The position numbers were made by a program, and so were the translations under genes. From the NCBI GenBank assembly GCA_049997855.1, contig JBEKSG010000004.1:2607-66606 (forward strand): 64,000 nucleotides of DNA, given 5' to 3'. This stretch comes from Minisyncoccia bacterium. GTDB lineage: Bacteria > Patescibacteriota > Minisyncoccia > Phycocordibacterales > SBAW01. Shown here piece by piece: positions 12,340 through 31,275 of the stretch. Under the pieces are notes generated by a model. That model searched no databases and was not told the origin of the DNA. It saw only the letters and a program-made list of their open reading frames with translations. Every line of letters begins with the position of its first letter. The first letter of the stretch is position 1.

Positions 12340-14370
<2,031 letters not shown>

Positions 14371-16882: not shown

Positions 16883-16953
16883 CGCGGGGTGGAGGAATGG
16901 TACCTCACGAGGCTCATAACCTCGGGATCTGGGTTCGACTCCCGGCCCCGCAA
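16883..16953 (+). tRNA. tRNA-fMet (anticodon CAT), initiator type
   Basis: Cloverleaf folded by hand: acceptor CGCGGGG/CCCCGCA with C1xA72 mismatch, A11:U24 pair, anticodon loop CTCATAA, T-loop TTCGACT. Confidence 0.75.
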
Positions 16954-16960
16954 CACGTAT

Positions 16961-17653: not shown

Positions 17654-17727
17654 GTCGGCGTAGCTCAGGCAGTTAGAGCATGGGACTCATAAACCCAAGG
17701 TCGAAGGTGCAAGTCCTTCCGCCGACA
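17654..17727 (+). tRNA. tRNA-Met (anticodon CAT; elongator or Ile2-type)
   Basis: Acceptor GTCGGCG/CGCCGAC, D-arm GCTCAG..GAGC, anticodon loop CTCATAA, perfect T-stem GAAGG/CCTTC. Confidence 0.7.
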
Positions 17728-17821
17728 CACAGTTGTGACGCCAGGAACTCGTTCCGTCAGGCGTCGAAAGTGCGAAATTCCGGTACCATACCGCTGAGGG
17801 TCGAATCCTAGTCTGCCAGCC

Positions 17822-18505
17822 ATGAAAATTATAAACAACCTCAGCATAACCGGTGCATATCGAAACAGAGTGACGCTCGTTGTCTATTATGGTATGCGTG
17901 TGTTAGTCCTCATTGGGGCGGCTCTATTTCTATTGCGGGGAAACTGGGAGTCGGCGGTAAGCACTCTCCTTATTTTCCTTCTGATGTTTGTTCCGTCTAT
18001 CCTTAAAGAGCGCTACCGGCTGTATCTGCCGTTTACTCTCGACCTAGGCATTGTTATTTTTATTTTTTCCACGCTCTTTTTAGGCGAAGTGGGGCGCTTT
18101 TACGATCGGATTCCGCTGTGGGATAAATTTTTACACTTTCAATCGGGACTTTTACTGGGCGCAACCGGCTACGTACTGCTGTATATCTTAAACGAACATA
18201 AGCACTTGAAACTCAACCTGAGCCCGCTGTTTGTATCAATTTTTGCGGTCGCATTTTCTCTCGCAATAGGCGCGGTGTGGGAGATGTTCGAGTTTGCGGG
18301 AGACGCATATTTTTCAGCTCATCTCGTCAATTACTCTCCTTGGCAGGCAAGCAATGCCGATACCATGTGGGACCTTATTGCAGACGGAGGAGGAGCATTG
18401 ATCGTCAGTATGGTGGGATATTTTTGGATGCATCAATATAAGCGCCTCCCTTTTACTCCTTGGATGCTCAAGATAATCAAGATCAAAAATAAGTTCAAGA
18501 AATAG
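17822..18505 (+). CDS. Integral membrane protein (hypothetical)
   Basis: Multiple hydrophobic helices; no catalytic motif recognised. Confidence 0.35.
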   Translation: MKIINNLSITGAYRNRVTLVVYYGMRVLVLIGAALFLLRGNWESAVSTLLIFLLMFVPSILKERYRLYLPFTLDLGIVIFIFSTLFLGEVGRFYDRIPLWDKFLHFQSGLLLGATGYVLLYILNEHKHLKLNLSPLFVSIFAVAFSLAIGAVWEMFEFAGDAYFSAHLVNYSPWQASNADTMWDLIADGGGALIVSMVGYFWMHQYKRLPFTPWMLKIIKIKNKFKK

Positions 18506-18606
18506 CAGTGGAAATGTCATATACATGGTTGGTCTGGCGGCCTTTCTCCGCCACAGCAAAAGTTTAAAAGCCTCTGGAAGTTATCGAGGACTTTTTCTTT
18601 TGCTTC

Positions 18607-19938
18607 CTACATTAGAGTAATTTTCTTATCATTGATTACGAGCTTGCCGCGCAGGTGCTCCAGTAGCTCGCGCTTTTCCTCCATGCTTCCTTCCTCAAGC
18701 AGGTACTTTGCATATTTCTTTATATCCATCGCCACCCCTGTGTCTTTCTCTTTTGAACCAAGCACTGTCTTGCGGAGCTTGTTGTAGCGGGCAATCTCTT
18801 TCTCAATAAGGTGGCGGGCGCCCAACTCGTCAATCTCGACTTGGTCGATGATTCCGCACAGCTGCTCTATGACACTGTCCTCACGGATGTAAGGATTCTT
18901 GCAATTGCGGTCTTTGCCGCCAGTGCAACTGTAGTAGGTGTACCAGCGGGAAGTGCCATCTTTGTTGACCTTCTGCTTGTCCAATCCGGTCACGCCGGAG
19001 CCGCACTTGCCGCATACCATGAGGCGCACAAAGGTAAACTCGCGGTCGCGCTTTCTTGGCTTGCTCTCCTCGATAATCTTTGCACGGACCGCTTGGAATA
19101 GTTCCTGTGAGATGAGAGGCTGATGCTTCCCAACATACCAGTTGCCGCTCTTACGCGGGTACTCATACACGCCGCAGTAAAAGGGATTCTTGAGCATCTC
19201 GTACAGCGTGCTTATGTTAAGCGTCTTGTCGTTGCGTGTCTTGAAGTTCATCTCATCCTTTAGCCAAAAATATACCCGCTTGCCGCTCCAGCGTTCCTTT
19301 GCCACTTTCTCGAATATCATCCTAACTACCGGCGCCCGTAGGGGATCGAGCAGTACTTCGCACTTGTGGTCTGAGCGTTTGTCGTTGAGATATCCAGTCG
19401 GCGCATACCCCGGCAAAAGGCCCATTTCTGCACGCGTTCGCAGCCCGCGCTTCACGTTTACGCTCTTGTTGTCATTCTCCAGCTTTGCCTGAGAGCACAG
19501 TATCATCAGCATGAACTTCTCGTTCGGATTGTTGGTAAACTTCTGCGAGTACGCGCGTATCTCCAAGAGCTTGCCTTGGTCGAATAGGTCCACCACCGCA
19601 CCAAGGTCTCCGGCATTGCGGCTCAGCCTGTCCGGTGCCCACGTCAGGATGCCGTTGAATTTTCCCGTTCGTATATCAGCGAGCAACTGCTGGTACACGG
19701 GTCGTTGCCCGGCCGCTTTTGCAGAATGCTTCTCCTGTCGCACTTCAACAACTTCGAGCCCATCCCGCTCTGCCACCTGCGTCATCTCCTTGATTTGCGA
19801 CCCTATGGAGAGAGCCTGATTCTCATCGTCCTCGGTGCTCTTGCGAGCGTAAAGGCAGTAGCGCACCTTTACTGCCTCCTTAATTTCCGGCCTCGCCCCT
19901 AGAGCTCCTGTTGTACCTTCAAAAACGCTTGTGTTCAT
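18607..19938 (-). CDS. Large serine recombinase (integrase)
   Basis: N-terminal resolvase catalytic domain (YARKSTEDDENQ..), recombinase domain, C-terminal zinc ribbon CGKCG..C..C, coiled-coil; 443 aa. Confidence 0.85.
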   Translation of the reverse strand: MNTSVFEGTTGALGARPEIKEAVKVRYCLYARKSTEDDENQALSIGSQIKEMTQVAERDGLEVVEVRQEKHSAKAAGQRPVYQQLLADIRTGKFNGILTWAPDRLSRNAGDLGAVVDLFDQGKLLEIRAYSQKFTNNPNEKFMLMILCSQAKLENDNKSVNVKRGLRTRAEMGLLPGYAPTGYLNDKRSDHKCEVLLDPLRAPVVRMIFEKVAKERWSGKRVYFWLKDEMNFKTRNDKTLNISTLYEMLKNPFYCGVYEYPRKSGNWYVGKHQPLISQELFQAVRAKIIEESKPRKRDREFTFVRLMVCGKCGSGVTGLDKQKVNKDGTSRWYTYYSCTGGKDRNCKNPYIREDSVIEQLCGIIDQVEIDELGARHLIEKEIARYNKLRKTVLGSKEKDTGVAMDIKKYAKYLLEEGSMEEKRELLEHLRGKLVINDKKITLM

Positions 19939-19947
19939 ATGCCTTGT

Positions 19948-19975
19948 AGTTACTTGCTAATCTGCAAGTACAAGG
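19948..19975. promoter_or_regulatory. Inverted repeat TTACTTGC-n6-GCAAGTAC in divergent promoter region between recombinase and helicase genes
   Basis: Dyad read from sequence, 10 nt upstream of recombinase start codon. Confidence 0.3.
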
Positions 19976-20034
19976 AATGACGCAACCCCTGCTGTGAGTC
20001 TAGACCAGCTCCGGCACCCCTAAGTTGGTAAGAA

Positions 20035-23000
20035 ATGCTTCTAAAAGAGGCTCAAAGTGCTATTATTTGCCTAATAATACGAAATTTCATGAATTCCGAT
20101 CTTACATTCATAACCAACGAGGATGGTCAGAACCTTAAGGAGAGGTTCGAAGTGTTAATTAAAGACACTAAGTTCTTTGACTGTCTGGTCGGGTACTTTT
20201 ATGCCAGCGGCTTCCACGCCGTATATAAGTCTCTAGAAAAGACGGAGAAAATCAGGATTCTTATTGGCATCAGCACTGATCCGCATACCTACGATTTGAT
20301 GCAGCAAGCGCAACCGGTAGCGCAGACTGCCTTGCAGTTCTCGAGTGCAGAGACGAAAGAAAAGCTTGGTGCAGTTGTCGAGCAGGAGATGGAATCTTCC
20401 GAGGACAACGCAATAACCGAGAATGGCGTTTCAAAATTCATTGAGTGGATACAGAGCGGTAAATTGGAGATTCGTGCATATCCATCGGAGAAAATCCATG
20501 CAAAGGTTTACATCATGACGTTTGGCGAGGGCGATCGCGACAAGGGTCGCGTTATCACCGGTTCAAGCAACTTTACGCAAGCGGGTTTCGTGGACAATCT
20601 AGAGTTCAATGTCGAACTCAAAAACAGTGCCGATTATGATTTTGCTTTGAGCAAATTCAACGAACTATGGAAAGATTCAGTGGATGTCAGTCAAAAATAT
20701 GTTGACACCATACAAACGAAAACGTGGCTCAGCGATAGCATTACCCCGTATGAACTGTATCTGAAATTCCTCTATGAATATTTCAAGGATGATCTAGGTA
20801 CCCACGATGAAGTGTTCCTTAAGTATCTTCCGATTGAATTCAAGAAACTTGAGTACCAAGAACAAGCCGTTCTTAATGCGAAGAAGATTCTTGATGAATA
20901 TGGCGGTGTATTTATTTCCGACGTCGTCGGTCTAGGTAAGACGTATATTTCGGCGATGCTCGGCGGCCAACTCGTGAATGAAGGCAGGATTCTCGTCATC
21001 GCTCCGCCGGTCCTGCTGGATAAGACCAATCCGGGGTCATGGCCGAACGTGTTTAGGGATTTCAACGTGCCGGCCACGTTCCGGTCTATTGGCGAACTCG
21101 ACAAGATCATCAAGGACGGTGTCGAACAGTATTCGCATCTGTTTGTTGATGAGGCACACCGCTTCCGTACCGAGAATAATGCGACGTATGAAAAGTTGGC
21201 CGAGATTTGTCGTGGGAAGAAGGTCGTCCTTGTAACCGCGACTCCGTACAACAACTCCCCAAGGGATATTTTGAGTCAGATCAAGCTTTTCCAGAAGGCT
21301 CGAAAGAGTACAGTCCCTAATTTGCCGGATCTCGAGCAATTCTTCGCCGGTCTCGAACGCAAGCTTAAAAATCTCGACCGCCAGAAAGATTATGACGAAT
21401 ACATCGCGGCCGTCAAAGAAAACGCGAAGGAAATCCGAGAGAAAGTACTCAAGTATTTGATGGTGCGTCGTACTCGCACGGAGATCACCAAATATTTTGC
21501 GGAAGATCTGGCCGCTCAGAAGCTGAAGTTCCCGGACATAGAAAAACCGGAAGCGACTTTCTATGAATTGAACGACGATGAGGATGTGATATTTACCAAG
21601 ACCATTGAGCTGCTGGCTAAGAACTTCAAGTACGCGCGGTACACCCCGATTCTTTACTACAAGGGTGAGGTCAGTCAGCCGGAGGAATTGGCCCAAAAGA
21701 ACATGGGCAAGTTTATGAAAATACTGCTCATCAAGCGTCTCGAAAGCAGCTTTCACGCATTCCAAAACTCACTCGGTCGCTTTATACATTCTTACGAGTC
21801 ATTTATATCGGAGATGGATAACGGCAACGTATATGTAAGCAAAAAGTACACGAATAAAATCTTTGAATTTCTTGCGGATGACAATGACGACGCTGTCGAA
21901 GCACTGATTAGCCAGGGTAAGGCTGATAGGTTACCCAGCAAGGATTTCCGAGCAGAGTTTAGAAAGGACTTGCAAAGCGATCTCGATATCTTGAAAGAGA
22001 TTCATCAGATGTGGATGAGCATCAAGCGCGACCCGAAGCTTTTGGCATTTATAGAAAAACTTTCCACCAACCCGATCCTTAAAAAGAGTAAGCTCATCAT
22101 ATTTACTGAATCAAAGGAGACGGCTGAATACCTCGCCAAGAATATCGATGCCAAGTTTCCGAATGAGACGCTCTGCTTTACTGGTGCCTCCAGCATGCTG
22201 GTCCGGGAACAGGTTATTGAGAATTTTGATGCCAAGGCCAGATTCCCGAAAGACGATTACCGAATTCTCGTCTGCACTGAAATATTGGCGGAAGGTGTGA
22301 ACTTACATCGTTCCAATGTCGTTATTAATTACGATATTCCTTGGAATCCGACCCGCATGATGCAACGGGTCGGTCGCGTCAACCGAGTCGATACCAAATT
22401 CGATAAGGTCTATACATTCAATTTCTTTCCTACTAAACAAGCCAACGACCAAATCAAGCTTCGTGAGGCGGCCGAGGCGAAAATCAGCGCATTCTTGTCC
22501 TTGCTTGGCGGCGATGCACATTTGCTCACCGAAAACGAGCCAATTGGATCCCACGAGCTGTTCAACCGCCTCACCTCAAAAGAAATTATTACCGGCGAGA
22601 ATGAGGACGAGGAGAGCGAACTCAAATATCTTCGTGTCATCAAGGATATTCGAGATAAAGACCCGGATACTTTTGAAAAAGTTAAGCGTTTACCCAAGAA
22701 GGCGCGAACAGCGAGAACGAACAAAGAGCATGTCGGGCAACTGATCTCATATTTTCGTCGTGGAAAGATACAAAAGTTCTTCGCAGCCACAGGCACTCGT
22801 TCTCAAGAATTGGATTTCATTTCCGCAGCTAAAATGCTTGAGTCTGCAAAAGACACGAAGCGGCAGAAAGTTGATAAGGATTTCTACTCCCTGCTTGAGG
22901 AAAACAAGAAGGCATTTATCTTTGCGACAACAGAAGAAATGCCGGAAGTAAAAATGCGCGGCGGGCGCGACAGCGCGACGCAAATCTTGAGGATTCTGAA

Positions 23001-23283
23001 GGCGACCATGAACGACCACCGACAATTTACCGAAGAACAGGAGCTTTATCTCAAAAAGGTCGTCACCCAGCTCGAGGAAGGCGGTTTGCCTAAACAAACC
23101 ACGAAGGTAACACTGCAGGCTCTTAATGATGAAATCAAAAAAAACATTAATCCGCTAAAGATTCTCTCGGTCCTGCAGAGTCACATCTCAGTGCGGCTTC
23201 TTGGAGGTCATTTTGCCGAAACTACCACCGACCACTTCGGTAAGCGAGAGGTTATTCTGTCAGAGTATTTGACGAACTTATGA
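20035..23283 (+). CDS. PLD-family nuclease / SNF2-type SF2 helicase fusion protein (probable start ATG 20089)
   Basis: N-terminal HxK..GSxN phospholipase-D motif (HAKVYIM..GSSNFT); Walker A GLGKT, DEAH box (FVDEAH), helicase C-terminal motif VI (QRVGRVNR). Confidence 0.8.
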   Translation: MLLKEAQSAIICLIIRNFMNSDLTFITNEDGQNLKERFEVLIKDTKFFDCLVGYFYASGFHAVYKSLEKTEKIRILIGISTDPHTYDLMQQAQPVAQTALQFSSAETKEKLGAVVEQEMESSEDNAITENGVSKFIEWIQSGKLEIRAYPSEKIHAKVYIMTFGEGDRDKGRVITGSSNFTQAGFVDNLEFNVELKNSADYDFALSKFNELWKDSVDVSQKYVDTIQTKTWLSDSITPYELYLKFLYEYFKDDLGTHDEVFLKYLPIEFKKLEYQEQAVLNAKKILDEYGGVFISDVVGLGKTYISAMLGGQLVNEGRILVIAPPVLLDKTNPGSWPNVFRDFNVPATFRSIGELDKIIKDGVEQYSHLFVDEAHRFRTENNATYEKLAEICRGKKVVLVTATPYNNSPRDILSQIKLFQKARKSTVPNLPDLEQFFAGLERKLKNLDRQKDYDEYIAAVKENAKEIREKVLKYLMVRRTRTEITKYFAEDLAAQKLKFPDIEKPEATFYELNDDEDVIFTKTIELLAKNFKYARYTPILYYKGEVSQPEELAQKNMGKFMKILLIKRLESSFHAFQNSLGRFIHSYESFISEMDNGNVYVSKKYTNKIFEFLADDNDDAVEALISQGKADRLPSKDFRAEFRKDLQSDLDILKEIHQMWMSIKRDPKLLAFIEKLSTNPILKKSKLIIFTESKETAEYLAKNIDAKFPNETLCFTGASSMLVREQVIENFDAKARFPKDDYRILVCTEILAEGVNLHRSNVVINYDIPWNPTRMMQRVGRVNRVDTKFDKVYTFNFFPTKQANDQIKLREAAEAKISAFLSLLGGDAHLLTENEPIGSHELFNRLTSKEIITGENEDEESELKYLRVIKDIRDKDPDTFEKVKRLPKKARTARTNKEHVGQLISYFRRGKIQKFFAATGTRSQELDFISAAKMLESAKDTKRQKVDKDFYSLLEENKKAFIFATTEEMPEVKMRGGRDSATQILRILKATMNDHRQFTEEQELYLKKVVTQLEEGGLPKQTTKVTLQALNDEIKKNINPLKILSVLQSHISVRLLGGHFAETTTDHFGKREVILSEYLTNL

Positions 23284-23284
23284 T

Positions 23285-26200
23285 ATGCAGAAAACACAGG
23301 CACAAAATCTTGTCAGAGACACTCTACAGAATGATTTCAATAAAGAGAAGTTTCTTTATTTTGTAAAAAACCTTCTCAATAGGGTCGATGATTCGAAGGC
23401 TTTTCTGGCACGCGGCTATGTGCCCGAGGCCTATACAAGCTACATTAAGACTTATGAGCGGCTTGCAACTTATACTGACCCTATCGGTAGTAAAGTAGAT
23501 ATCCTTATTGTCTATCTCCAAAAAGAAACGTCGCTTGAACGGGCTCGTACTGCCCAGCGTAATTTTGTTGCTCGGTATCTCAAGGAAAGGAACCAAAAGG
23601 ATGCCGGCCTTGTAGCCTTTGTCTCTCCAAACCTAGCCGATTGGCGCTTCTCGCTGGTGAAGATGGAATATAAGTTCACTGAGGACAAATCTGGCAAGAC
23701 AAAGGTTAAGGAAGAGTTTACTCCGGCAAAACGCTGGTCGTTTCTTGTCGGTAAGAATGAAAATAGTCATACCGCCCAGAGCCGCCTCGCTCCAATCATG
23801 GAAGACGATGAAGCTAACCCCACTCTTAAACAGCTCGAGGATGCTTTCAATATAGAAAAAGTCACCAAAGAATTCTTTGAAAAATATCGAGAAATATTCT
23901 TGCGTGTTCATGAGACTTTGAATGATGTCATCAGTCATCACCCAAATATTAAAGCTGATTTTGCTGAGAAAAATGTTAATACCGTAGATTTTTCAAAAAA
24001 ATTACTCGGCCAGATTGTGTTCCTCTACTTCTTGCAGAAAAAAGGTTGGTTCGGTGTGCCGATGAATAAAGGCTGGGGCGATGGCAACAAGAAATTCCTC
24101 CGGACTTTATTTGAAGAGGCGGCTGGTAAAGACAAAAACTATTTTAATGACTACCTTGAACCACTTTTCTATGAAGCTTTAGCTAAAGAACGAGACGATG
24201 ATTTTTATAGCCGATTTGAATGTAAAATACCGTTCCTAAACGGCGGCCTCTTTGACCCAATCAACAACTACGATTGGGTAAATACTGCCATTGATTTACC
24301 TAACGATATTTTTTCAAATACTCGAAAAACCAAAGACGGCGACATTGGCGACGGCATTCTGGATATATTTGATCGCTATAACTTTACTGTTAAAGAAGAT
24401 GAGCCGCTGGAAAAAGAGGTGGCTGTAGACCCGGAAATGCTCGGTAAAGTGTTTGAGAACCTCTTGGAAGTCAAAGACCGTAAATCCAAAGGCACTTACT
24501 ATACGCCACGCGAGATCGTTCATTATATGTGCGAGCAGAGTTTGGTTAACTATCTATCTACTGAACTCGACGGCAAGGTCGCAAAAGAAGATTTAGAGAT
24601 GCTTGTGAAGATTGGCGAAAATGTAGCAGAGCATGAAGCCATATACGTGGCTAAAAAGAAGGACAACCCGGATTATGAGGGGCCGTACGATCAAATATTG
24701 CCAGAATCCATAGAGAAATTCGCCAAAGACATTGACCAAAAACTGGCCGATATCAAAGTTTGCGATCCGGCCATCGGCTCCGGCGCTTTTCCGGTTGGTA
24801 TGATGAATGTCATTGTTAAGGTCCGTATGGTGCTTTCGAGCTACCTCAAAAACAAAAACCGGAGCCTATACAATTTCAAACGCGATTGCATTCAGAATTC
24901 TCTTTATGGTGTGGATATTGATCCGGGTGCGGTTGAGATTGCTAAGTTACGGCTGTGGCTTTCTTTGATAGTTGACGAAGATGATATCAAGCAGATCAAG
25001 CCATTGCCGAACTTGGATTATAAAATAATGCAAGGAAATAGTCTGCTTGAGGAATTTGAAGGTATCAAGCTCTTTGATGAAAAACTTCTTGAAGCACAAA
25101 TTATTGACTCAAGAATTTTTGATCCCTTTAATCAAAAGATATCATCTCTACAAAGTGAACTCTTAAAACATTATATAAAAAACTCCGAGTGGCTGAAAAA
25201 TAAAGATGCGGATAGGCCACAGGAAGTGCGAGATCTTGAGGGGCAGTTGCGGGAACTTCTGAAAACAAAAAAACTCTTTAAAGATAAGGGCTTTGAGCAA
25301 AAAGACTTATTTGCCAATGCAATAGAATCCAGACAAATCCACGATGAGCTGGAAAGATTGCACAAGAAGTTTTTTGAGGAAACTAATAAAAACCAAAAAG
25401 ATACATTAAAGCAGCAAATCGAAAAGTTGGAATGGGAACTTATTGAAGCAACGCTCAAAGAGCAGGGCAAGATCTCTGCCCTCAAAAAGCTCCAGGAATT
25501 TAAACGTTCAAACACCAAACCATTTTTCCTATGGAAGCTCAATTTTGCCGAAGTGTTCGAGGAGAAAGGCGGCTTCGATGTGGTGATTGCAAATCCACCG
25601 TACGTTGGGGAAAGTGGAAACAAGGAAATATTCAGGCCAATTGCAAAAGGAAATTTAGAAAGATTTTATAAGGGGAAAATGGATCTTTTTTACTTCTTTT
25701 TTCATCTTGCTCTCAATCTTGGTAAACCATCCTCGCTGTGTGCATTTATTTCTACAAATTATTTTATAACCGCATCTGGCGCTAGCAATCTCAGGTCTGA
25801 CTTAAGAGAAAGGGCTGTAATTAATAATCTCGTAAATTTTAATGAACTAAGAATATTTGAATCGGCACTTGGGCAACACAATATGATTACCATCTTCAGT
25901 AAAGATCTAAATAAGGAAACTTCCGCTCATACTTGTATTACACGAAGATCTGGGTTAGCGAACGGAGAAATATTAAATAAAGTATTTTCCGGTGAAGACA
26001 AGGATTCAGATTACTACTCTGTGAAGCAGGAGCAACTTTATGATGGTATAGAAAATTACATACGTCTTAGTGGTATCGGAAATACAGAAAACCCAATAGA
26101 AAAAGTGTTAGAAAAGATGAAAGAACAAGGAACTATTCTAAAGGATGTTTGTGAAATCAATCAAGGGTTGGTAACCGGAGCAAATAAGGTCAGTTTGAAA

Positions 26201-26965
26201 CACATAAAAAAATATAAAATTGAGGCAGGGGTTGGAGATGGGATTTTTGTGTTAAGCAAAGAAGAAATAAAAAACCTTAATTTAACTAAAGATGAGAAAC
26301 GGATTTTAAGGCCGTGGTTTAAAAATAGCGATGTTTATAGATGGAGCACAAATATTGATAGTAGTGAGAGCGTTATGTATCTAGGTAGAAGTGAAAAAAG
26401 CATTGGATCTAACATGGAAGGACATTTGCAAAGATATATTGAACTATTGAATCACCGACGAGAGGTCGAAAATGAAGTTATTAAATGGTGGCAACTTCAA
26501 TGGCCAAGAGAAGAAACTATTTTCGATGAAGCCAAAATAGTGGCACCTTATAGGAGCAAGACTAATACATTTGGTTATAACGAGGTTCCTTGGTATGCAG
26601 CCTCTGACGTATACTTTTTGACGCAGAAAGATAAACAGATTTCATTGAAATATATTTTAGGATTACTAAATTCAAAATTATATCGCCTATGGCTTTACCA
26701 ACGAGGGAAAAGAAAAGGAGAAATATTAGAATTATTTTACCAACCACTCTCTGAAATTCCAGTTAAGAAATGTTTACAAGATGACCAAAAACCATTTATT
26801 GATCTCGCTGAAAAAATTCTCAAAATCACTAAATCGGATGACTACCTAAAGAATGCCGAAAAACGAGCAATAGTCCAAGACCTTGAACATCAAATAGATA
26901 AACTAGTATATAAACTTTACGGCCTCACTGAAAACGAGATTAAGATTGTGGAAAAAGAATTATGA
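23285..26965 (+). CDS. Large gamma-class N6-adenine DNA methyltransferase, PglX/Eco57I/DrmMI-like (1226 aa)
   Basis: Motif X GTYYTP, motif I DPAIGSGAFP, motif IV NPPY (VIANPPYVG), long C-terminal specificity region; 2-nt gap from helicase gene. Confidence 0.85.
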   Translation: MQKTQAQNLVRDTLQNDFNKEKFLYFVKNLLNRVDDSKAFLARGYVPEAYTSYIKTYERLATYTDPIGSKVDILIVYLQKETSLERARTAQRNFVARYLKERNQKDAGLVAFVSPNLADWRFSLVKMEYKFTEDKSGKTKVKEEFTPAKRWSFLVGKNENSHTAQSRLAPIMEDDEANPTLKQLEDAFNIEKVTKEFFEKYREIFLRVHETLNDVISHHPNIKADFAEKNVNTVDFSKKLLGQIVFLYFLQKKGWFGVPMNKGWGDGNKKFLRTLFEEAAGKDKNYFNDYLEPLFYEALAKERDDDFYSRFECKIPFLNGGLFDPINNYDWVNTAIDLPNDIFSNTRKTKDGDIGDGILDIFDRYNFTVKEDEPLEKEVAVDPEMLGKVFENLLEVKDRKSKGTYYTPREIVHYMCEQSLVNYLSTELDGKVAKEDLEMLVKIGENVAEHEAIYVAKKKDNPDYEGPYDQILPESIEKFAKDIDQKLADIKVCDPAIGSGAFPVGMMNVIVKVRMVLSSYLKNKNRSLYNFKRDCIQNSLYGVDIDPGAVEIAKLRLWLSLIVDEDDIKQIKPLPNLDYKIMQGNSLLEEFEGIKLFDEKLLEAQIIDSRIFDPFNQKISSLQSELLKHYIKNSEWLKNKDADRPQEVRDLEGQLRELLKTKKLFKDKGFEQKDLFANAIESRQIHDELERLHKKFFEETNKNQKDTLKQQIEKLEWELIEATLKEQGKISALKKLQEFKRSNTKPFFLWKLNFAEVFEEKGGFDVVIANPPYVGESGNKEIFRPIAKGNLERFYKGKMDLFYFFFHLALNLGKPSSLCAFISTNYFITASGASNLRSDLRERAVINNLVNFNELRIFESALGQHNMITIFSKDLNKETSAHTCITRRSGLANGEILNKVFSGEDKDSDYYSVKQEQLYDGIENYIRLSGIGNTENPIEKVLEKMKEQGTILKDVCEINQGLVTGANKVSLKHIKKYKIEAGVGDGIFVLSKEEIKNLNLTKDEKRILRPWFKNSDVYRWSTNIDSSESVMYLGRSEKSIGSNMEGHLQRYIELLNHRREVENEVIKWWQLQWPREETIFDEAKIVAPYRSKTNTFGYNEVPWYAASDVYFLTQKDKQISLKYILGLLNSKLYRLWLYQRGKRKGEILELFYQPLSEIPVKKCLQDDQKPFIDLAEKILKITKSDDYLKNAEKRAIVQDLEHQIDKLVYKLYGLTENEIKIVEKEL

Positions 26966-27312
26966 AAACCGTATTTATAGGGCATCCGGTCGGCGGCGAT
27001 ATAAAGGGCAATATCGAGAAAGTTTTAAAGATATGCTCGGAGGTGCACACGAAGGATATTATTCCGGTTGCCCCCTATCTTATATCGCTTCAATATCTTA
27101 ACGACGAATTGATCGAAGACCGGGAACTTGGCATGGAGGCCAACCATGAATGTTTTCGCCGCCGATATGTTGATGAGCTTTGGTTGTTTGGCGATACAAT
27201 ATCCCCGGGAATGGAGAAAGAAATTTTACTCGCGAAGGAAATGGGCATCCCAATCGTCCCAAAGACCGAGGGTGCAAAGCGAGATTTGAGCAAGCTCACT
27301 GGTGTAGAATAA
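26962..27312 (+). CDS. DUF4406-like (nucleoside 2-deoxyribosyltransferase-like fold) protein
   Basis: MKTVFIGHPVGGD.. N-terminus typical of DUF4406; ATGA overlap with MTase gene. Confidence 0.4.
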   Translation: MKTVFIGHPVGGDIKGNIEKVLKICSEVHTKDIIPVAPYLISLQYLNDELIEDRELGMEANHECFRRRYVDELWLFGDTISPGMEKEILLAKEMGIPIVPKTEGAKRDLSKLTGVE

Positions 27313-27316
27313 ATTT

Positions 27317-27448
27317 ATGGACGAGGAACTTTTTGAACTGGCAAAAGAGAACGACCTAACGCTTGATGAGGCGCAGGAGGTTCAGGATCTTGCTGATGAG
27401 ACAGGGTTAGATCTAGAAGAAGCCTTAGAGCTCTGGCAGGAGCAGTAG
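27317..27448 (+). CDS. 43-aa highly acidic small protein, copy 1 (MDEELFELAKENDLTLDEAQEVQDLADETGLDLEEALELWQEQ)
   Basis: Not in ORF track (<60 aa); a second copy at 61931 differs mainly at synonymous sites, implying a selected protein. Confidence 0.5.
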   Translation: MDEELFELAKENDLTLDEAQEVQDLADETGLDLEEALELWQEQ

Positions 27449-27495
27449 TCTGCGGTAATAAAGACAATTTCCTCGAAAAGTGTTATAATATACCT

Positions 27496-28281
27496 ATGAA
27501 GTCATTCCGAGTTTTAGCACAGCCACTTTTCGGCGAGGAGGAAAGAAGGGAATATTTCGTGGATGCCGAGGATGAGGAAGACGCAAAAAAGCTCGGTTTC
27601 GAGAAAATGTTTGCGCGTGAAAGCAAGGATGCGCTGCTCGATAGCCCTAGCCAAATGTTCACCGCCGAAGAAATAACCTTCAGGCCTCGTAGGCTTTCCG
27701 ATCTAATCGACAACATCGAATACTACGTTACGAAAATGCGAAAGACGGAGGATATGGATGTCATTCCCGAAATGCTCAGGCAGTACGCTCTAAATTATTT
27801 TAGGGACGTGCCGTTGGACGATGATGCCCTGCAGGCGGTCGCAATCTTCACGATGGATAAGACCTACCGCGTAGCGGCATACCTGGAAATATTTGATAAC
27901 TACACCAGAGCGTATTTTGCAAAAGTGATTCCCCACATTTGGGATTACCTACACCGCAGAGGACTTCCCGTTTTTTATATTGTCGACAATACGTTCCGAA
28001 ACGACGGAAGGTTTGAAGCTATTACTGAGATGTTCAAGCTCACAGGTATAACCGTAGTATCTCCTTATGACGGAGAAGGTACCCTAGAATACGAAGCTGT
28101 GGGTCGACAGATCAAGGAGGCTGTGGCGGCAAAAATGATTGTCATGTATATCGAGAAGGATGCCCGAGTTAATTACCTCGACCGAGTCAAAGAATTGGCG
28201 ACGAAGTCAAACTACCTCTGCATCTTCAGAAGCAAAGCGTCCGCGAACCACTTGATCGAGATATTAAAGAACCATTCTTAG
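27496..28281 (+). CDS. Hypothetical protein (261 aa)
   Basis: Intact ORF in AT-rich island; no motif recognised. Confidence 0.35.
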   Translation: MKSFRVLAQPLFGEEERREYFVDAEDEEDAKKLGFEKMFARESKDALLDSPSQMFTAEEITFRPRRLSDLIDNIEYYVTKMRKTEDMDVIPEMLRQYALNYFRDVPLDDDALQAVAIFTMDKTYRVAAYLEIFDNYTRAYFAKVIPHIWDYLHRRGLPVFYIVDNTFRNDGRFEAITEMFKLTGITVVSPYDGEGTLEYEAVGRQIKEAVAAKMIVMYIEKDARVNYLDRVKELATKSNYLCIFRSKASANHLIEILKNHS

Positions 28282-28350
28282 ACCTCAATTGGTTAATGTT
28301 GATAGCCCCTTCACAACGTGCTAAATCTAAACTAACATCCTCATACTATT

Positions 28351-29640
28351 ATGACTACAATTACATGCACTAAGTGTGGCGCGGAAATTGAGCTCTCGGA
28401 AGCCCTAACAAAAGACATCGAGAAAACAGTTCTCATTGCCGAGCACAAAAAGCACGAGGCTGAACTGGAGACAGTCAGAAAAGAGGCAGCCGCTAGTGCT
28501 CAAAAGAGTGCTGAATCGACGCTGGAAATTGAAAGAAAAAAGCTTGCACATGAGGCTGATGCTGCAAAAAAAGCTGCGGATGCAGAAATTGAAATTGCAA
28601 AAAAGAAGTTTGAGGCTGAGACGCTTGCGGTAAAAAAGAAAGCATCAGCCGAGAATGATCTCATAATAAAGGAATTGAAAGCTGAAGCAGAAGGTGATAA
28701 AAAATCAAATGGAGAACTCCGTGAGAAACTGAGCGAGTTGATGACGGAGTTGAGAGAAGAGCGCAAAGCTAAGGAAAACGCTGAGTTGGAAATGCAGGAG
28801 AGAATGGCGAAAGAAGAAACAAAAATTCGCGAAGAGGCTACAAAAAATGCTGATGAAAAGTATCGTTTTAAATTGGCGGAAAGTGACAAGAAATTATCAG
28901 ATACACAGAAGGCGTTAGACGAAGCTCAAAGAAAAGCGGCCCAAGGGTCTCAACAACTTCAAGGGGAAGTATTAGAGCTTGATATGGAACAGGCCCTAAG
29001 GGACGAATTTCGTGATGATATTATCGATCCTATTGGCAAGGGAGTAAAAGGAAGTGACATCCGGCAAACTGTTCGAAGTCCAAGAGAGTCAGAATGTGGA
29101 ATCATTTTGTGGGAATGCAAAAGTCACAAGAACTGGAAAGAGGAATGGATACAGACTGCCAAAGAGAATTTGCGGTCCGCTAAAGCAAACATTCCTGTCA
29201 TTGTAAGCAATATAATGCCTAAACAAATTTCTGGAGACATTGGAAATACCAATGGTGTTTGGGTTTGCAAGCCAAGTTCCATGGTGATTCTCGCAACATT
29301 GCTCCGTAAGGGATTACTAGACGTCGGTCTTCAAAAAGCCCTCGCTCAAAATCGCGGTACGAAAGCGGATGCGCTTTTTGGTTTCGTGACTAGTCACGAA
29401 TTTGTGCATCAAGTGGAGGCGATGATAGAAACCTATACTGAAATGAGAGCACAGGTGTTGAAAGAGCGCACTGCATACGAGAAATTTTGGGCTCAAAGAG
29501 AAGCACAGGCACAGAGACTTCTCATGGGAACTGCAAACATTATTGGGGGAATGGCGGGGCACATTGGTGCGACGGCAATGCCAAAAATCAAAGGGTTGGA
29601 ACTACTCGAGGGTGGCAATACAGAACCAGAGGCTGAATAA
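28351..29640 (+). CDS. Zinc-ribbon + long coiled-coil protein (DUF2130-like)
   Basis: N-terminal CTKCG zinc-ribbon-like motif, ~200-aa Lys/Glu-rich coiled coil, conserved C-terminal globular region. Confidence 0.35.
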   Translation: MTTITCTKCGAEIELSEALTKDIEKTVLIAEHKKHEAELETVRKEAAASAQKSAESTLEIERKKLAHEADAAKKAADAEIEIAKKKFEAETLAVKKKASAENDLIIKELKAEAEGDKKSNGELREKLSELMTELREERKAKENAELEMQERMAKEETKIREEATKNADEKYRFKLAESDKKLSDTQKALDEAQRKAAQGSQQLQGEVLELDMEQALRDEFRDDIIDPIGKGVKGSDIRQTVRSPRESECGIILWECKSHKNWKEEWIQTAKENLRSAKANIPVIVSNIMPKQISGDIGNTNGVWVCKPSSMVILATLLRKGLLDVGLQKALAQNRGTKADALFGFVTSHEFVHQVEAMIETYTEMRAQVLKERTAYEKFWAQREAQAQRLLMGTANIIGGMAGHIGATAMPKIKGLELLEGGNTEPEAE

Positions 29641-29672
29641 CTCCCGAGCCGCGTCAAGTTAAAAAAAACTCT

Positions 29673-30287
29673 ATGCCACTCAAATTAAGAAAATATAAAA
29701 ATGCTTGCATAAAACTAAACGGGGGTAATCCCGTTTTTATACCTGAGTCAGATCCAAAAAATGGGACGGGCAAGATAAACATAATGTTTATTAATGAAAG
29801 GCCCGGTCCTAAAACTAGAGGAACGGATCTTGTGTGTTTTGATAATCCTGATCCGACAGCAAGACTGTTTAAACATCTTTTTGAAAAAACTTTTGGTCTA
29901 GAATATCGTAGCCATATCTTTATAACAAACGCAGTAATTTGGGTTCCCGACGAAGCAAAACCAAGAAATTACAAACCCACAAACAAGGAATTGCGAGACA
30001 GTCTGCCAATTTTAAAGAATCAAATAGAAACAATTAAACCAAAGCTGATCGTTTCGTTGGGTAATAGTGCTTTATACTCACTGAAGAGATTGTATTCAGA
30101 ATCTCAAAAACTCAAAGGATATAAACTTACTAATGATATAGGGAAAGTAATAACAGACACACCAATTAGTATTTATCCGGCGTTCCATACTTCGTCTTTA
30201 GGACAGGTCACAAGAAATAAGAAACAGCAGGAAAAAGATTGGCTAAAAATGAGAGGCTTAATCACTACCACCCCATCTAACCCCTAA
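29673..30287 (+). CDS. Uracil-DNA glycosylase superfamily-like protein
   Basis: ERPGP..G motif A-like and AFHTSS motif B-like spacing resembling family 4/5 UDGs; weak. Confidence 0.3.
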   Translation: MPLKLRKYKNACIKLNGGNPVFIPESDPKNGTGKINIMFINERPGPKTRGTDLVCFDNPDPTARLFKHLFEKTFGLEYRSHIFITNAVIWVPDEAKPRNYKPTNKELRDSLPILKNQIETIKPKLIVSLGNSALYSLKRLYSESQKLKGYKLTNDIGKVITDTPISIYPAFHTSSLGQVTRNKKQQEKDWLKMRGLITTTPSNP

Positions 30288-30290
30288 CAT

Positions 30291-30482
30291 ATGAAAAAGG
30301 ACAAGGAGATTAAGATCGTGTATCACTATATCGAGCCCAAAACCGAGGAAGAATCACAGGAGGCAGAGCGGCGCTTGGATGCTGCTTTTGACATCCTTTT
30401 TGAAGCCGTTGAGAGGAAAAACAATAAAAAATTAATCGTTCAGGACACGTCGTCTGGTGAATCTGAAAGACCCACTCTATGA
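30291..30482 (+). CDS. Small hypothetical protein (63 aa)
   Basis: ORF only. Confidence 0.2.
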   Translation: MKKDKEIKIVYHYIEPKTEEESQEAERRLDAAFDILFEAVERKNNKKLIVQDTSSGESERPTL

Positions 30483-30664
30483 TAGAACTACTGACCATAA
30501 AGGAGGTTGCGGAGTTGCTGAAGGTTTCTCAAACTTCAGTGCGACGCCTGCAGCAAGGGCGACATCTCCCATTCATCAAGGTTGGGGGTAGTGTCCGTTT
30601 TGATAAAAGCGACATTATTAATTTCCTAAAGGAACAGAGGGTTGAGGCAATCAGTAGATTTTGA
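30479..30664 (+). CDS. Excisionase-family / MerR-like HTH DNA-binding protein (possible recombination directionality factor)
   Basis: LTIKEVAELLKVSQTSVRRL helix-turn-helix typical of excisionase-family proteins; last gene before att-like inverted repeat. Confidence 0.55.
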   Translation: MIELLTIKEVAELLKVSQTSVRRLQQGRHLPFIKVGGSVRFDKSDIINFLKEQRVEAISRF

Positions 30665-30734
30665 GACTTGCCGGTCGTTGGGCTATTTATTAATTAAATA
30701 GCCAAAGAGCAGTACAGGAGCGGTCGGCAAGTCT
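30665..30734. mobile_element. Candidate att site: nested imperfect inverted repeat (outer arms AGACTTGCCGGTCG / CGGTCGGCAAGTCT 12/14; inner palindrome GGCTATTTATTAATTAAATAGCC)
   Basis: Read from sequence; ~50-bp imperfect dyads are typical of serine-integrase att sites; directly follows excisionase-like gene. Confidence 0.35.
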
Positions 30735-30761
30735 TAGAACCTTCTGAGAATGAGGCTCCCA

Positions 30762-30812
30762 AAAAGTGACACGGTTAAATGCCATTCCTGTGTCACTTTT
30801 GTAACTTTTTGG
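30762..30812 (+). terminator. Hairpin AAAAGTGACAC..GTGTCACTTTT followed by T-run
   Basis: Read from sequence. Confidence 0.35.
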
Positions 30813-30942: not shown

Positions 30943-31251
30943 ATGGCTTGGTATCTGTATATAGCTAGCTTTTTTGCCGGAATTTTTTTAGCCAATGCAA
31001 TCCCGCATTTCATGCAGGGTGTTTCGGGGAATAGATTTCCCTCACCGTTTGCCAAACCACCCGGCAGGGGACTGTCATCTCCGATGGTCAACGTGGTGTG
31101 GGCACTGTTCAATTTCGTAGTCGGTTATCTGCTGTTACAGGTGGGGCAGGTACGCTCCGGCAACATGATGTCACTCGTCATTTTCTTTGTCGGTGCCGCT
31201 GCCATCAGCATCATGTCGAGCATCAACTTTCAAAAGAAAGAAAGAGAATGA
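30943..31251 (+). CDS. Small integral membrane protein (hypothetical)
   Basis: Three hydrophobic helices. Confidence 0.3.
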   Translation: MAWYLYIASFFAGIFLANAIPHFMQGVSGNRFPSPFAKPPGRGLSSPMVNVVWALFNFVVGYLLLQVGQVRSGNMMSLVIFFVGAAAISIMSSINFQKKERE

Positions 31252-31275
31252 TTGAGATAGCGGCTTCTTAAGTCT

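What the first reader, a model, noticed from the sequence alone, without database searches (positions are those of the whole stretch)
17654..30812. tRNA-Met-adjacent integrative island bounded by a large serine recombinase and an excisionase-like gene with an att-like nested inverted repeat
Seen: a tRNA-Met gene is followed by a membrane-protein gene and a minus-strand large serine recombinase. About 10 kb of AT-richer cargo follows (the PLD-helicase/MTase module, DUF4406, the acidic ORF, three hypotheticals including a UDG-like gene), ending with an excisionase-family HTH gene. Directly after that gene lies a ~70-bp nested imperfect inverted repeat (30665-30734). Established: large serine integrases use ~40-50 bp imperfect dyad att sites and small recombination directionality factors. 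Inference: an integrated or integrative element of about 12 kb delivering a defence module. The exact att crossover cannot be determined from one genome.
Basis: partly seen in the sequence, partly recalled or inferred. Interest (0 to 1): 0.55.

Follow-up and report, generated by a model that had tools for sequence, protein, structure and literature searches.

The report
tRNA-Met island integrated by serine recombinase

Summary
The island is real, but its right boundary and att candidate are wrong.

In close relatives, one 11.8-kb LSR element occupies two different positions in a tRNA-fMet array. It is flanked by a perfect 17-bp repeat covering the tRNA 3' end, with characteristic arms containing GTACNNTACCG.

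An HMM built only from those relatives' sites hits the window twice: 17727-17802 (E 5.5e-16) and 38638-38715 (E 8e-6). Nothing lies between. The element therefore spans about 17723-38651 (20.9 kb).

This ParB-MTase/TerS/TerL module recurs beside LSRs in relatives, always without capsid or tail genes.

The hairpin at 30651-30747 is internal, not conserved and lacks att motifs. It is most simply an end-of-operon stem-loop.

The LSR family is abundant in Patescibacteria and sits convergent to many different tRNAs. I read this as a tRNA-3'-end-targeting, satellite-like integrative element: a new variant of a known kind.

The parts
17654..17728 (+). tRNA-Met (CAT), the integration target; its last nucleotides are part of the att core
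   Evidence: ARAGORN; Rfam tRNA 63.1 bits
17723..17794 (+). attL: core CGACACACAGTTGTGACGC (17723-17741) plus element-side arm ending in GTACCATACCGC (17783-17794)
   Evidence: nhmmer with an HMM built from relatives only hits 17727-17802, E 5.5e-16. Motif statistics. 25/31 identity to the experimentally-polymorphic junction of relatives.
17822..18505 (+). small membrane protein (DUF2238-like), a passenger gene between attL and the LSR
   Evidence: Pfam PF09997 E 1.7e-4, below cutoff. Relatives carry other small membrane genes in the same slot: Bflower and DUF1189.
18607..19938 (-). large serine recombinase (443 aa), the integrase of the element
   Evidence: Pfam Resolvase+Recombinase+Zn_ribbon_recom. 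YARKS motif. Best PDB match is SPbeta SprA 9dxh, E 2e-14. More than 8000 homologues exist, the top 120 at >=59% identity, named Patescibacteria lineages.
19968..20034 (.). conserved LSR 5' leader with weak att-like sequence (possible operator or secondary site)
   Evidence: Conserved in L002/L006/L009/L012/L021/L027/L047. The att HMM scores 5-9 bits in the same register, against a maximum of 1.8 in 420 shuffles.
20035..23283 (+). HKD(PLD)-SNF2 helicase-nuclease, defence cargo
   Evidence: Pfam PLDc_2, SNF2-rel_dom, Helicase_C; PADLOC C3a139 HKD+Snf2 3e-46
23285..26965 (+). Type IIG restriction-methyltransferase-like protein (1226 aa)
   Evidence: Pfam Eco57I 4e-33, TaqI_C, MmeI_Mtase; PADLOC REase_MTase_IIG 1e-246
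26962..27312 (+). DUF7768 / nucleoside 2-deoxyribosyltransferase-like
   Evidence: Pfam PF24963 1e-22; phrog_355 5e-12
27317..27448 (+). 43-aa acidic ORF, duplicated at 61931-62061
   Evidence: 82% identity over 131 nt; gene call in L045
27496..30482 (+). 261-aa unknown, DUF2130 (28351-29640), UDG-family (29673-30287), 63-aa unknown
   Evidence: Pfam; no PHROG/PADLOC hits
30479..30664 (+). HTH_17 (excisionase/MerR-like) 61-aa DNA-binding protein; candidate regulator or directionality factor, untested
   Evidence: Pfam PF12728 2.7e-14; no homologue in related loci
   Evidence: Inverted repeat; fold z -6.1; no att HMM hit; not conserved in relatives
30943..31632 (+). 102-aa hydrophobic protein and 118-aa pyrophosphatase-like protein
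   Evidence: Pfam Pyrophosphatase 2.6e-10
31806..31922 (+). LOOT RNA (RF03000) inside the element
   Evidence: Rfam 68.9 bits vs gathering 46.4
31997..32899 (+). 300-aa membrane protein, convergent with TerL; conserved next to TerL in a relative
   Evidence: PHROG hits to unknown and superinfection-exclusion-like families; L062 homologue 75% identical over 113 aa in the same position
32896..34743 (-). terminase large subunit (615 aa)
   Evidence: phrog_38 2e-71. PDB terminase matches 2.5e-8. Homologues lie on the LSR 5' side in L027 (62%), L014, L015 and L031.
34706..35137 (-). terminase small subunit (143 aa)
   Evidence: phrog_309 3e-13; Pfam HTH_Tnp_1_2
35124..37149 (-). two N4/N6 DNA methyltransferases (35124-35909/36113 and 35869-37149; the second has a weak ParB_N match)
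   Evidence: Pfam N6_N4_Mtase 7e-28 and 9e-26; PADLOC MTase_II 3e-56; the same module in L027, L047, L060, L061
37280..38257 (-). 325-aa protein of unknown function, last gene of the element
   Evidence: No Pfam/PHROG/PADLOC hit
38454..38503 (+). degenerate extra arm remnant with GTACCATACCGC (38478-38489)
   Evidence: E 0.24, partial
38616..38706 (+). attR: element-side arm GGGTACGGTACCGCCCA (38616-38632), core GGGACACAGCGTTGTGAGA (38633-38651), host-side arm ending in GTACCATACCGC (38695-38706)
   Evidence: nhmmer 38638-38715, E 8.2e-6. Best non-self Smith-Waterman hit of attL in the whole window: score 38 vs mean 15.7, sd 2.5. Motif GTACNNTACCGC occurs 4 times vs 0.1 expected, all at the two ends. 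Architecture is identical to junctions J1-J3 of relatives.

Best explanation
Window 17723-38651 is one integrated mobile element of about 20.9 kb. It sits in a Patescibacteria chromosome, inserted at the 3' end of tRNA-Met by its own large serine recombinase (18607-19938).

The recombinase recognises a site that straddles the tRNA 3' end. The left half is the tRNA T-arm and acceptor end. The right half is a downstream arm (inferred).

The circular element carries an attP whose core mimics the last nucleotides of the tRNA plus about 11 nt downstream. The tRNA therefore stays intact, and the occupied site can be used again, which produces tandem arrays. This is shown in relatives and inferred for the window.

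Reading away from the tRNA, the element is built as:
- attL
- a small membrane gene
- the LSR
- a conserved att-like leader
- a low-GC variable cargo: HKD-SNF2 helicase-nuclease, Type IIG RM-like enzyme, and nucleotide/uracil-related genes, ending with an HTH_17 gene and a double hairpin
- a few small genes and a LOOT RNA
- a conserved module at native GC: 300-aa membrane protein, TerL, TerS, two DNA methyltransferases and a 325-aa gene
- attR

The element has terminase genes but no capsid, portal or tail genes. I infer that it spreads like a phage satellite, packaging itself into a helper phage's capsids. That step is inference only.
For: 1. Mobility and att definition in relatives. An identical LSR (P0010, 72% identical to the window's) lies on long contigs with two arrangements.
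   - In L047/L053 the order is tRNA-fMet | E1 | E2 | host. In L048/L054 it is tRNA-fMet | E2 | E1.
   - E2 (11,821 bp) is 100% identical in both. It is bounded by a perfect 17-bp repeat, GCAACACGGTTGTGACG, made of the last 6 nt of the tRNA plus 11 nt.

2. The same architecture in the window. An HMM trained only on the relatives' core+arm sequences hits the window at 17727-17802 (E 5.5e-16) and 38638-38715 (E 8.2e-6). There are no other significant hits.
   - It also finds an untrained site in L002.
   - attL's best non-self match in the whole window is attR, about 9 sd above background.
   - GTACNNTACCGC occurs 4 times against 0.1 expected, only at these ends.
   - The core pattern occurs at 17728 and 38639.

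3. The genes between 30.8 and 38.3 kb belong with the LSR. TerL, TerS and MTase homologues lie on the LSR 5' side in L027, L014, L015, L031 and L047. In L031, TerL abuts the LSR.

4. tRNA targeting is a family trait. In 24 of 31 genome loci the first tRNA downstream of the LSR is convergent, and in none is it co-directional. The targets span many tRNA identities.

5. The LSR looks functional.

6. No structural genes were found. None appear in the window's element, in the fully delimited 14.2-kb E1, or after TerL in L069/L062.
Against: - No empty site or circular form of the window's own element was found. Exact-protein look-ups returned only island-bearing contigs.
- The window's two cores are not identical: 13 of 17 positions match, with identity blocks of 6 and 7 nt. 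The element may be old or immobilised, and the crossover dinucleotide is not mapped.
- The attR HMM hit is much weaker than the attL hit.
- The relatives' evidence comes from metagenome assemblies. A third arrangement (L055) could be an assembly chimera.
- The satellite-like packaging role of TerS/TerL is pure inference.
- No replication module was detected in the window's element.
- An att-like sequence in the LSR leader leaves open that the 21 kb is a composite of sub-units.
Confidence: 0.78

Rival explanations
1. One reading: a 12-13 kb island from tRNA-Met to the HTH_17 gene, with the nested inverted repeat at 30665-30734 as the second att site.
For: The GC drop ends near 31-32 kb. The hairpin is real and strong. 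HTH_17 proteins can act as excisionases (Pfam family).
Against: - The att HMM from relatives gives no hit there.
- The core and GTACNNTACC motifs are absent there.
- The hairpin is not conserved in any related locus.
- A U-tract hairpin follows it, as at an operon end.
- The genes beyond it (TerL, TerS, MTases, 300-aa) recur with this LSR family.
- A well-formed att junction lies at 38.6 kb.
Confidence: 0.04
2. A composite array rather than one element. A minimal LSR unit (attL, membrane gene, LSR, att-like leader) is followed by one or more LSR-less units. These hold the low-GC defence cargo and the TerL/TerS/MTase block. They were captured at the leader site or by homologous exchange, and the whole is closed by attR at 38.6 kb.
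For: - The LSR leader is conserved and weakly att-like.
- In L021 a 5.7-kb block is flanked by two leader copies.
- LSR-less units flanked by att repeats exist: Fic + AEP-TOTE helicase in L009, L002 and L038.
- E2 contains an internal att copy.
- The cargo next to the leader differs in every relative.
- The GC differs between the cargo and the TerL block.
Against: - No significant att hit lies between 17.8 and 38.6 kb apart from the weak leader match.
- In L031 TerL abuts the LSR, with only about 60 bp between them.
- E2 moved as a whole despite its internal sites.
Confidence: 0.15
3. A decayed prophage. The LSR, TerS, TerL and methyltransferases are the remains of a temperate phage that lost its structural and lysis genes. 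The island would no longer be mobile.
For: TerL and TerS are phage hallmark genes. The att cores in the window are imperfect. The L002 contig is listed in IMG/VR as a viral contig.
Against: - The same structure-less architecture recurs in distant relatives with intact ORFs.
- The fully delimited E1 is only 14.2 kb.
- A sister element (E2) has moved recently.
- Independent decay to the same gene set is unlikely.
Confidence: 0.1
4. A vertically inherited chromosomal locus. The recombinase would be a domesticated host gene next to tRNA genes, and the cargo would be ordinary strain-variable genes.
For: The LSR family is unusually conserved, at 59-82% identity across many Patescibacteria. GatCA-tRNA-fMet-LSR synteny recurs.
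Against: - Some genomes carry multiple copies.
- The copies sit at many different tRNAs.
- Position polymorphism has exact 17-bp junctions.
- att-like repeats bound the island.
Confidence: 0.03

Closest known systems
Tycheposons of Prochlorococcus (Hackl et al., bioRxiv 10.1101/2020.12.28.424599)
   Same: - Cargo-carrying integrative elements in streamlined genomes.
- They target the 3' side of tRNA genes and pile up in tandem, separated by partial tRNA copies.
- Some are satellite-like and carry a packaging gene.
- A minority use a large serine recombinase.
   Different: - 910 of 937 tycheposons use tyrosine recombinases, whereas this whole family uses an LSR.
- Tycheposons carry replication modules and either terS or MCP.
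- The window's element has TerS plus TerL and no detected replication gene.
- The host phylum is different, and homology of hallmark genes was not tested.
SCCmec / SCC elements with Ccr large serine recombinases
   Same: From my own knowledge, not tested here. LSR-mediated insertion occurs at the 3' end of a conserved housekeeping gene without destroying it. Short direct repeats containing the integration core sit at both ends. The site can be reused, giving composite tandem arrays that include recombinase-less units.
   Different: The SCC target is rlmH (orfX), not tRNA genes. Ccr proteins are larger and only distantly related. SCC carries no terminase genes.
Phage satellites (PICI, cfPICI, P4-like) with defence hotspots next to the integrase
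   Same: The size is 10-20 kb. An integrase sits at one end, variable anti-phage cargo lies beside it, and phage packaging genes occur without a full virion module.
   Different: Known PICIs and P4-like satellites use tyrosine integrases and carry primase/replication and regulatory modules. From my own knowledge, cfPICIs that encode TerL also encode capsid and portal genes. Here only TerS and TerL are seen. Helper dependence is untested.
Serine-integrase prophages (SPbeta SprA, phiC31, Bxb1, TP901-1)
   Same: The domain architecture is the same, and the closest solved structure is SprA. The reconstructed attP of relatives shows an imperfect dyad around the core.
   Different: From my own knowledge, classical serine integrases target protein-coding genes and share only a 2-bp core between attP and attB. 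Here the target is a tRNA 3' end, and attP and attB share up to 17 bp. The element is not a complete phage.

Membership tests
Large serine recombinase (serine integrase) | N-terminal resolvase catalytic domain with serine nucleophile | tested here: met
   PF00239 E 3.7e-23; YARKS motif at residues 29-33
Large serine recombinase (serine integrase) | Recombinase domain plus zinc-ribbon domain C-terminal to the catalytic domain | tested here: met
   PF07508 1.4e-15 and PF13408 7.5e-8; aligns to SprA residues 18-371
Large serine recombinase (serine integrase) | About 40-50 bp att sites with imperfect dyad symmetry around a 2-bp crossover | tested here: inconclusive
   The reconstructed attP of E2 shows GTTG...CAGTACC in both half-sites. 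The crossover dinucleotide is not mapped, and the shared core (17 bp) is longer than is typical.
Large serine recombinase (serine integrase) | Separate recombination directionality factor for excision | not testable with these tools
   HTH_17 (30479-30664) is a candidate only. No conserved partner gene was seen in relatives.
tRNA-associated integrative genomic island | Inserted at the 3' end of a tRNA gene with the integrase near that end | tested here: met
   tRNA-Met 17654-17728, LSR 18607-19938; convergent tRNA in 24 of 31 related loci
tRNA-associated integrative genomic island | Flanking direct repeats that include the tRNA 3' end | tested here: met
   17723-17794 vs 38633-38706; the repeat is imperfect, with 13/17 matches in the core
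tRNA-associated integrative genomic island | Presence/absence or position polymorphism between strains | tested here: inconclusive
   Not found for the window's own element. Shown for sister element E2 in relatives.
Complete prophage | Portal, capsid, tail and lysis genes | tested here: not met
   PHROG and Pfam scans find only TerL and TerS. About 2.5 kb of unknown ORFs is too little for a virion module.
Phage satellite (PICI/cfPICI-like) | Integrase plus packaging gene(s), small size, no full virion module | tested here: met
   LSR, TerS and TerL in 20.9 kb
Phage satellite (PICI/cfPICI-like) | Own replication module (primase/replicase and origin) | tested here: not met
   No primase or Rep domain in the window's element. 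AEP-TOTE primase-helicase units exist as separate neighbours in relatives.
Phage satellite (PICI/cfPICI-like) | Induction by and packaging into a helper phage | not testable with these tools
   Needs experiments or viral-fraction reads
Tycheposon | Tandem elements at tRNA genes separated by partial tRNA copies | tested here: met
   Partial tRNA-fMet ends in L002, L009, L048 and L053. This holds for relatives; in the window only the last few tRNA-like nucleotides are repeated.
Tycheposon | Shared hallmark gene set (integrase and replication gene families) with Prochlorococcus elements | not tested
   No tycheposon sequences were available for comparison
Integron-like cassette platform | Resident recombinase with an adjacent primary site where cassettes accumulate, each ending in its own site | tested here: inconclusive
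   The leader upstream of the LSR is weakly att-like, and variable cargo starts there. No repeated cassette sites lie inside the window's cargo.

The most novel reading that the evidence does not exclude
Patescibacteria harbour a very large, previously undescribed family of satellite-like integrative elements. A compact (about 440 aa), unusually conserved large serine recombinase inserts them at the 3' end of almost any tRNA gene, using an attP that mimics the tRNA end. The occupied site stays usable, so arrays build up. LSR-less units such as the Fic + AEP-TOTE primase-helicase blocks are moved in trans, and an att-like site in the LSR leader captures defence cargo. An orphan ParB-MTase/TerS/TerL module lets the elements hijack capsids of unknown CPR phages.
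Probability: 0.35. Interest if true: 0.75.

Novelty: new variant of a known kind. Interest (0 to 1): 0.58.

Why it matters
For this window, the result corrects the map. The mobile element is 21 kb, and it explains the defence genes, the orphan terminase genes and the methyltransferases as one unit.

More broadly, Patescibacteria have tiny genomes and few recognised mobile elements. Little is known about how they exchange defence genes or about their phages. Three points would interest specialists:
- The recombinase family has thousands of close homologues and always sits beside tRNA genes. That would make it a major route of gene flow in the phylum.
- Serine integrases that target tRNA 3' ends with a 17-bp shared core are unusual. 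Their compact size could interest genome engineers.
- Terminase pairs without virion genes point to satellite-helper relationships in a phylum where phage biology is almost unexplored.

All of this is testable with reads from the source samples and with simple in vitro recombination.

Tried and rejected
Direct and inverted repeats within 16.8-32.5 kb gave only chance-level matches. A short-word search for a second copy of the tRNA 3' end found nothing significant. It did reveal the 12-mer at 38.5-38.7 kb.
- **Empty-site search.** Exact-protein look-ups of the LSR, the 102-aa gene and the HTH_17 gene returned only the same island-bearing contigs.
- **L006 versus L007.** This looked like an occupied/empty pair. 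The breakpoint lies inside the Type IIL gene, so it is a deletion or strain branch, not an att junction.
- **Distal repeats in other loci.** Scanning 29 tRNA-proximal flanks in related loci gave clear repeats only in L038 and L013. L024 and L032 were weaker. Most islands exceed the 10-kb flanks.
- **Structural genes downstream of the LSR in L031.** PHROGs found none.
- **Structural genes after TerL in the IMG/VR contig L069.** The genes there are glycosyltransferases.
- **Literature.** Searches for Patescibacteria with serine recombinase and terminase found nothing relevant. A search for the LOOT RNA gave no functional information.
- **GTACCCTACC downstream of tRNA-Asp (42759).** It has no core and follows a terminator, so I treat it as chance.
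- **Arrangement C (L055: E1 end | E2 | E1 start).** It could be a circular composite, but it could equally be an assembly chimera across the identical E2. I did not use it as evidence.

Full report
**1.

ARAGORN finds two tRNA-Met genes. One at 16883-16954 is initiator-like, starting CGCGGGG and ending CCCCGCAACA.

The ORF at 17822-18505 is a hydrophobic 227-aa protein with a sub-threshold DUF2238 match. The ORF at 18607-19938 (-) is a 443-aa large serine recombinase (LSR) with all three Pfam domains. It has a YARKS active-site motif, and SPbeta SprA is its closest solved relative.

The plus-strand operon 20035-30664 encodes:
- an HKD(PLD)-SNF2 helicase
- a 1226-aa Type IIG-like restriction-methylase
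- DUF7768
- a 43-aa acidic peptide
- a 261-aa unknown protein
- DUF2130
- a UDG-family protein
- a 63-aa unknown protein
- an HTH_17 protein

GC falls to 0.35-0.47 across 20-31 kb, against about 0.52 in the flanks.

The nested inverted repeat is real, with outer arms 30651-30673 and 30725-30747 and an inner perfect 9-bp stem. It folds far better than shuffles, at z -6.1. A second hairpin with a U-tract follows it directly.

**2. The source and the recombinase family**

The LSR is identical to a protein NCBI names from a Minisyncoccia (Patescibacteria) MAG, on a 174,926-bp contig. The homology search saturated at 8000 hits. The top 120 are 59-82% identical over the full length, and all that carry names come from Patescibacteria lineages. 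Some MAGs carry two or three copies, sometimes in tandem.

In 24 of 31 genome loci, the first tRNA gene downstream of the LSR is convergent with it. In none is it co-directional. In 20 LSR copies that tRNA lies within 5 kb, often only 100-180 bp away. Its identity varies: Arg (several anticodons), Gly, Ser, Val, Phe, Glu, Gln, Leu and Met. Association with tRNA 3' ends is therefore a property of the family, not a coincidence in this window.

**3. Defining the att sites in relatives**

P0010 is an LSR 72% identical to the window's. Look-ups of P0010 and of its neighbour P0024 returned long contigs from different samples with different arrangements.
- In L047/L053 (one 123.7-kb contig) the order is tRNA-fMet | E1 | E2 | host genes.
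- In L048/L054 (a 65.9-kb contig) the order is tRNA-fMet | E2 | E1.

E2 is 11,821 bp and carries ParB-MTase, a Type III RM, LSR2, a CBASS gene and DUF1189. It is 100% identical in both contigs. The flanks switch exactly at a 17-bp sequence present at both ends of E2 and once in the unoccupied site. In tRNA orientation this core is GCAACACGGTTGTGACG: the last 6 nt of tRNA-fMet plus 11 nt downstream.

The tRNA in these contigs carries a group I intron (RF00028, 79.6 bits), which is why ARAGORN missed it.

Every junction has the same anatomy:
- On the tRNA-distal side, an arm ending in GGGTACTGTACCGACACGG.
- Then the core.
- Then an arm of about 60 nt, starting TCAGGAAC and ending in GGTACNGTACCG.

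The reconstructed attP shows an imperfect dyad, with GTTG (12-13 nt) CAGTACC on both sides. That fits a serine-integrase site, but the exact crossover is not mapped.

Because the incoming element inserts between the tRNA body and the older element, arrays grow outward from the tRNA. Partial tRNA ends remain between units, as also seen in L002 and L009.

**4. Applying that definition to the window**

The sequence after tRNA-Met at 17729-17794 is conserved in relatives. It matches the relatives' junction at 25 of 31 positions around the core.

A direct, imperfect copy lies at 38633-38706. It is preceded by GGGTACGGTACCGCCCA, which has the same P-arm form as in the relatives. Four independent measures agree:
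- The attL segment's best non-self local alignment anywhere in the 64-kb window is at 38.6 kb. The score is 38, against a background of 15.7 +/- 2.5 and a next-best score of 25.
- GTACNNTACCGC occurs four times against 0.1 expected, at 17783, 38478, 38618 and 38695.
- The core pattern occurs at 17728 and 38639, plus one unrelated hit inside a gene at 62.7 kb.
- An nhmmer profile built only from nine sites of relatives hits the window at 17727-17802 (E 5.5e-16) and 38638-38715 (E 8.2e-6). Nothing else falls below E 0.2, and there is no hit at all near 30.7 kb. The same profile recovers an untrained site in L002.

I therefore place attL at 17723-17794 and attR at 38616-38706, giving an element of about 20.9 kb. 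The two cores match at 13 of 17 positions. Either the arms differ naturally on each side of a crossover inside GTTGTGA, or the element is old. I cannot tell which.

**5. The extra 8 kb belongs to the element**

- ORF 32896-34743 (-) is a terminase large subunit (phrog_38, 2e-71; weak PDB terminase matches). ORF 34706-35137 (-) is a terminase small subunit.
- Upstream of these are two N4/N6 methyltransferases, one with a weak ParB_N match, and a 325-aa unknown protein.
- From 38892 onward the genes look like host genes: an ABC-2 transporter, HlyD proteins, tRNAs and RF-2.
- TerL homologues lie on the 5' side of the LSR in L027 (62% identity). There the order is MTase-TerS-TerL, then IS-disrupted HerA/SIR2 and HsdM, then the LSR.
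- They also lie there in L014, L015 and L031, where TerL ends about 60 bp before the LSR, and partially in L019 and L026.
- E1 of the polymorphic relatives carries ParB-MTase, a 121-aa gene and a Terminase_6C protein beside LSR1, followed by metal-resistance cargo. It totals 14.2 kb between att cores.
- Closer TerL relatives from metagenomes and IMG/VR show the same ParB-MTase/MTase/TerS/TerL block. One has a homologue of the window's 300-aa gene convergent on TerL. One has a different 623-aa serine recombinase upstream.
- In none of these loci do structural genes follow TerL. In L069 the next genes are glycosyltransferases and an epimerase.

The GC step near 31-32 kb is therefore the border between recently acquired cargo and the element's conserved backbone. 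It is not the end of the island.

**6. What the hairpin is**

It starts within the last codons of the HTH_17 gene, at the end of a 10.6-kb co-directional gene run. A U-tract hairpin follows it. It carries no att core or arm motif and has no counterpart in about 40 related loci. The simplest reading is a transcript-end stem-loop, possibly also a binding site for the adjacent HTH protein. I give the att reading about 4%.

**7. Mechanism, and which steps are shown or inferred**

Shown:
- The LSR gene is intact.
- att-like repeats sit at both ends of the element.
- A sister element relocated with base-pair-exact junctions at the tRNA 3' end.
- The tRNA association holds across the family.
- The terminase module recurs without virion genes.

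Inferred:
- The window's LSR made this insertion.
- The crossover lies in or next to GTTGTGA, so the tRNA is never broken.
- The occupied site can be reused.
- TerS and TerL package the excised circle into a helper phage's capsids, in a satellite-like life style.
- The HKD-SNF2 and Type IIG pair acts in defence.

No replication module was found in the window's element. In relatives, separate att-flanked units without an LSR carry Fic plus an AEP-TOTE primase-helicase (L009, L002, L038). That suggests mobilisation in trans.

**8. A loose end that matters**

The roughly 75 nt upstream of the LSR start is more conserved than the coding sequence across relatives. The consensus runs TTACCAAC...GGTCTGGACTCACAGCAGGGGTTGCGTCAT...CCTTGT.

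It scores 5-9 bits with the att profile in a constant register, against a maximum of 1.8 in 420 shuffled controls. Variable cargo begins exactly there in every relative, and in L021 two leader copies flank a 5.7-kb block. It could be an autoregulatory operator or a secondary capture site. The second reading would make the 21 kb a composite, and I list it as a rival at 0.15.

**9. Comparison with known systems**

The closest described systems are tycheposons. They also target tRNA genes, form tandem arrays with partial tRNAs, carry cargo or look PICI-like, and a minority use an LSR.

From my own knowledge, SCC elements are also close: an LSR inserts at the 3' end of a housekeeping gene, the core repeats are reusable, and composite arrays form.

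This system differs in several ways. It uses an LSR throughout, it targets tRNA 3' ends with up to 17 bp shared between attP and attB, and it carries TerS plus TerL without capsid genes. Its host is Patescibacteria. I found no paper describing it, although the library is incomplete.

**Verdict.** It is a new variant of a known kind. Interest is 0.58.

Noticed in passing
window 19968-20034; L002, L006, L009, L012, L021, L027 and L047 just upstream of the LSR start: A leader of about 75 nt upstream of the LSR gene is conserved across relatives and weakly resembles the att core and arm. Variable cargo always begins at its outer edge. In L021 two copies (4204-4250 and 9899-9945) flank a 5.7-kb block.
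   Followed up: partly
window 27317-27448 and 61931-62061: A 43-aa very acidic ORF (MDEELFELAKENDLTLDEAQEVQDLADETGLDLEEALELWQEQ) occurs twice at 82% nucleotide identity. Each copy lies in a low-GC region downstream of a DNA methyltransferase gene. It may be an anti-restriction or regulatory peptide.
   Followed up: partly
window 31806-31922 (+): A LOOT RNA (Rfam RF03000, 68.9 bits) lies inside the element, between the pyrophosphatase-like gene and the 300-aa membrane gene. Its function is unknown.
   Followed up: no
window 31713-31759; L006 121-192 and 1170-1241: An intergenic sequence of about 50-70 nt just upstream of the LOOT RNA matches a repeat that flanks a GIY-YIG + DUF3276 gene pair in L006 (85-89% identity). 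It may be a small RNA or a cassette boundary.
   Followed up: no
L047 12165-12510 (-), also L048/L054: The tRNA-fMet that serves as the integration target in these relatives is interrupted by a group I intron (RF00028, 79.6 bits, 12213-12486). ARAGORN therefore reports no tRNA.
   Followed up: yes
L009 11455-17713; L002 11477-17778; L038 6206-9751: Units of 3.4-6.3 kb encode Fic plus an AEP-TOTE primase-helicase, with or without Bles03 and PIF1/RecQ. They are flanked by att-type direct repeats but have no recombinase of their own. They may be non-autonomous elements moved in trans by the neighbouring LSR.
   Followed up: partly
L013 7823-16447; L018 8180-11272: Two or three LSR paralogues lie in tandem within a few kb, each followed by a convergent tRNA or an att-like remnant. 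This suggests accretion of minimal elements in tRNA-rich regions.
   Followed up: partly
window 58000-62100: A second low-GC region (0.37-0.43) holds a 770-aa N4/N6 methyltransferase (59481-61793). A PIF1-like helicase lies upstream (56524-58149). It may be another island and was not analysed.
   Followed up: no
L006 9049 / L007 4369: Two contigs with an identical LSR diverge inside the Type IIL RM gene, about 800 bp from its start. In L007 the remainder is replaced by an ABC transporter. This is either a deletion variant or a strain-level assembly branch (L008 ends at the same point).
   Followed up: partly
L027 2581-3741, 4811-5973, 6809-7972, 11910-13070: Four copies of rve-type IS elements disrupt a HerA/SIR2 defence pair inside the LSR element of a Kaiserbacteria chromosome. 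One 1161-bp pair is inverted and brackets the LSR.
   Followed up: no
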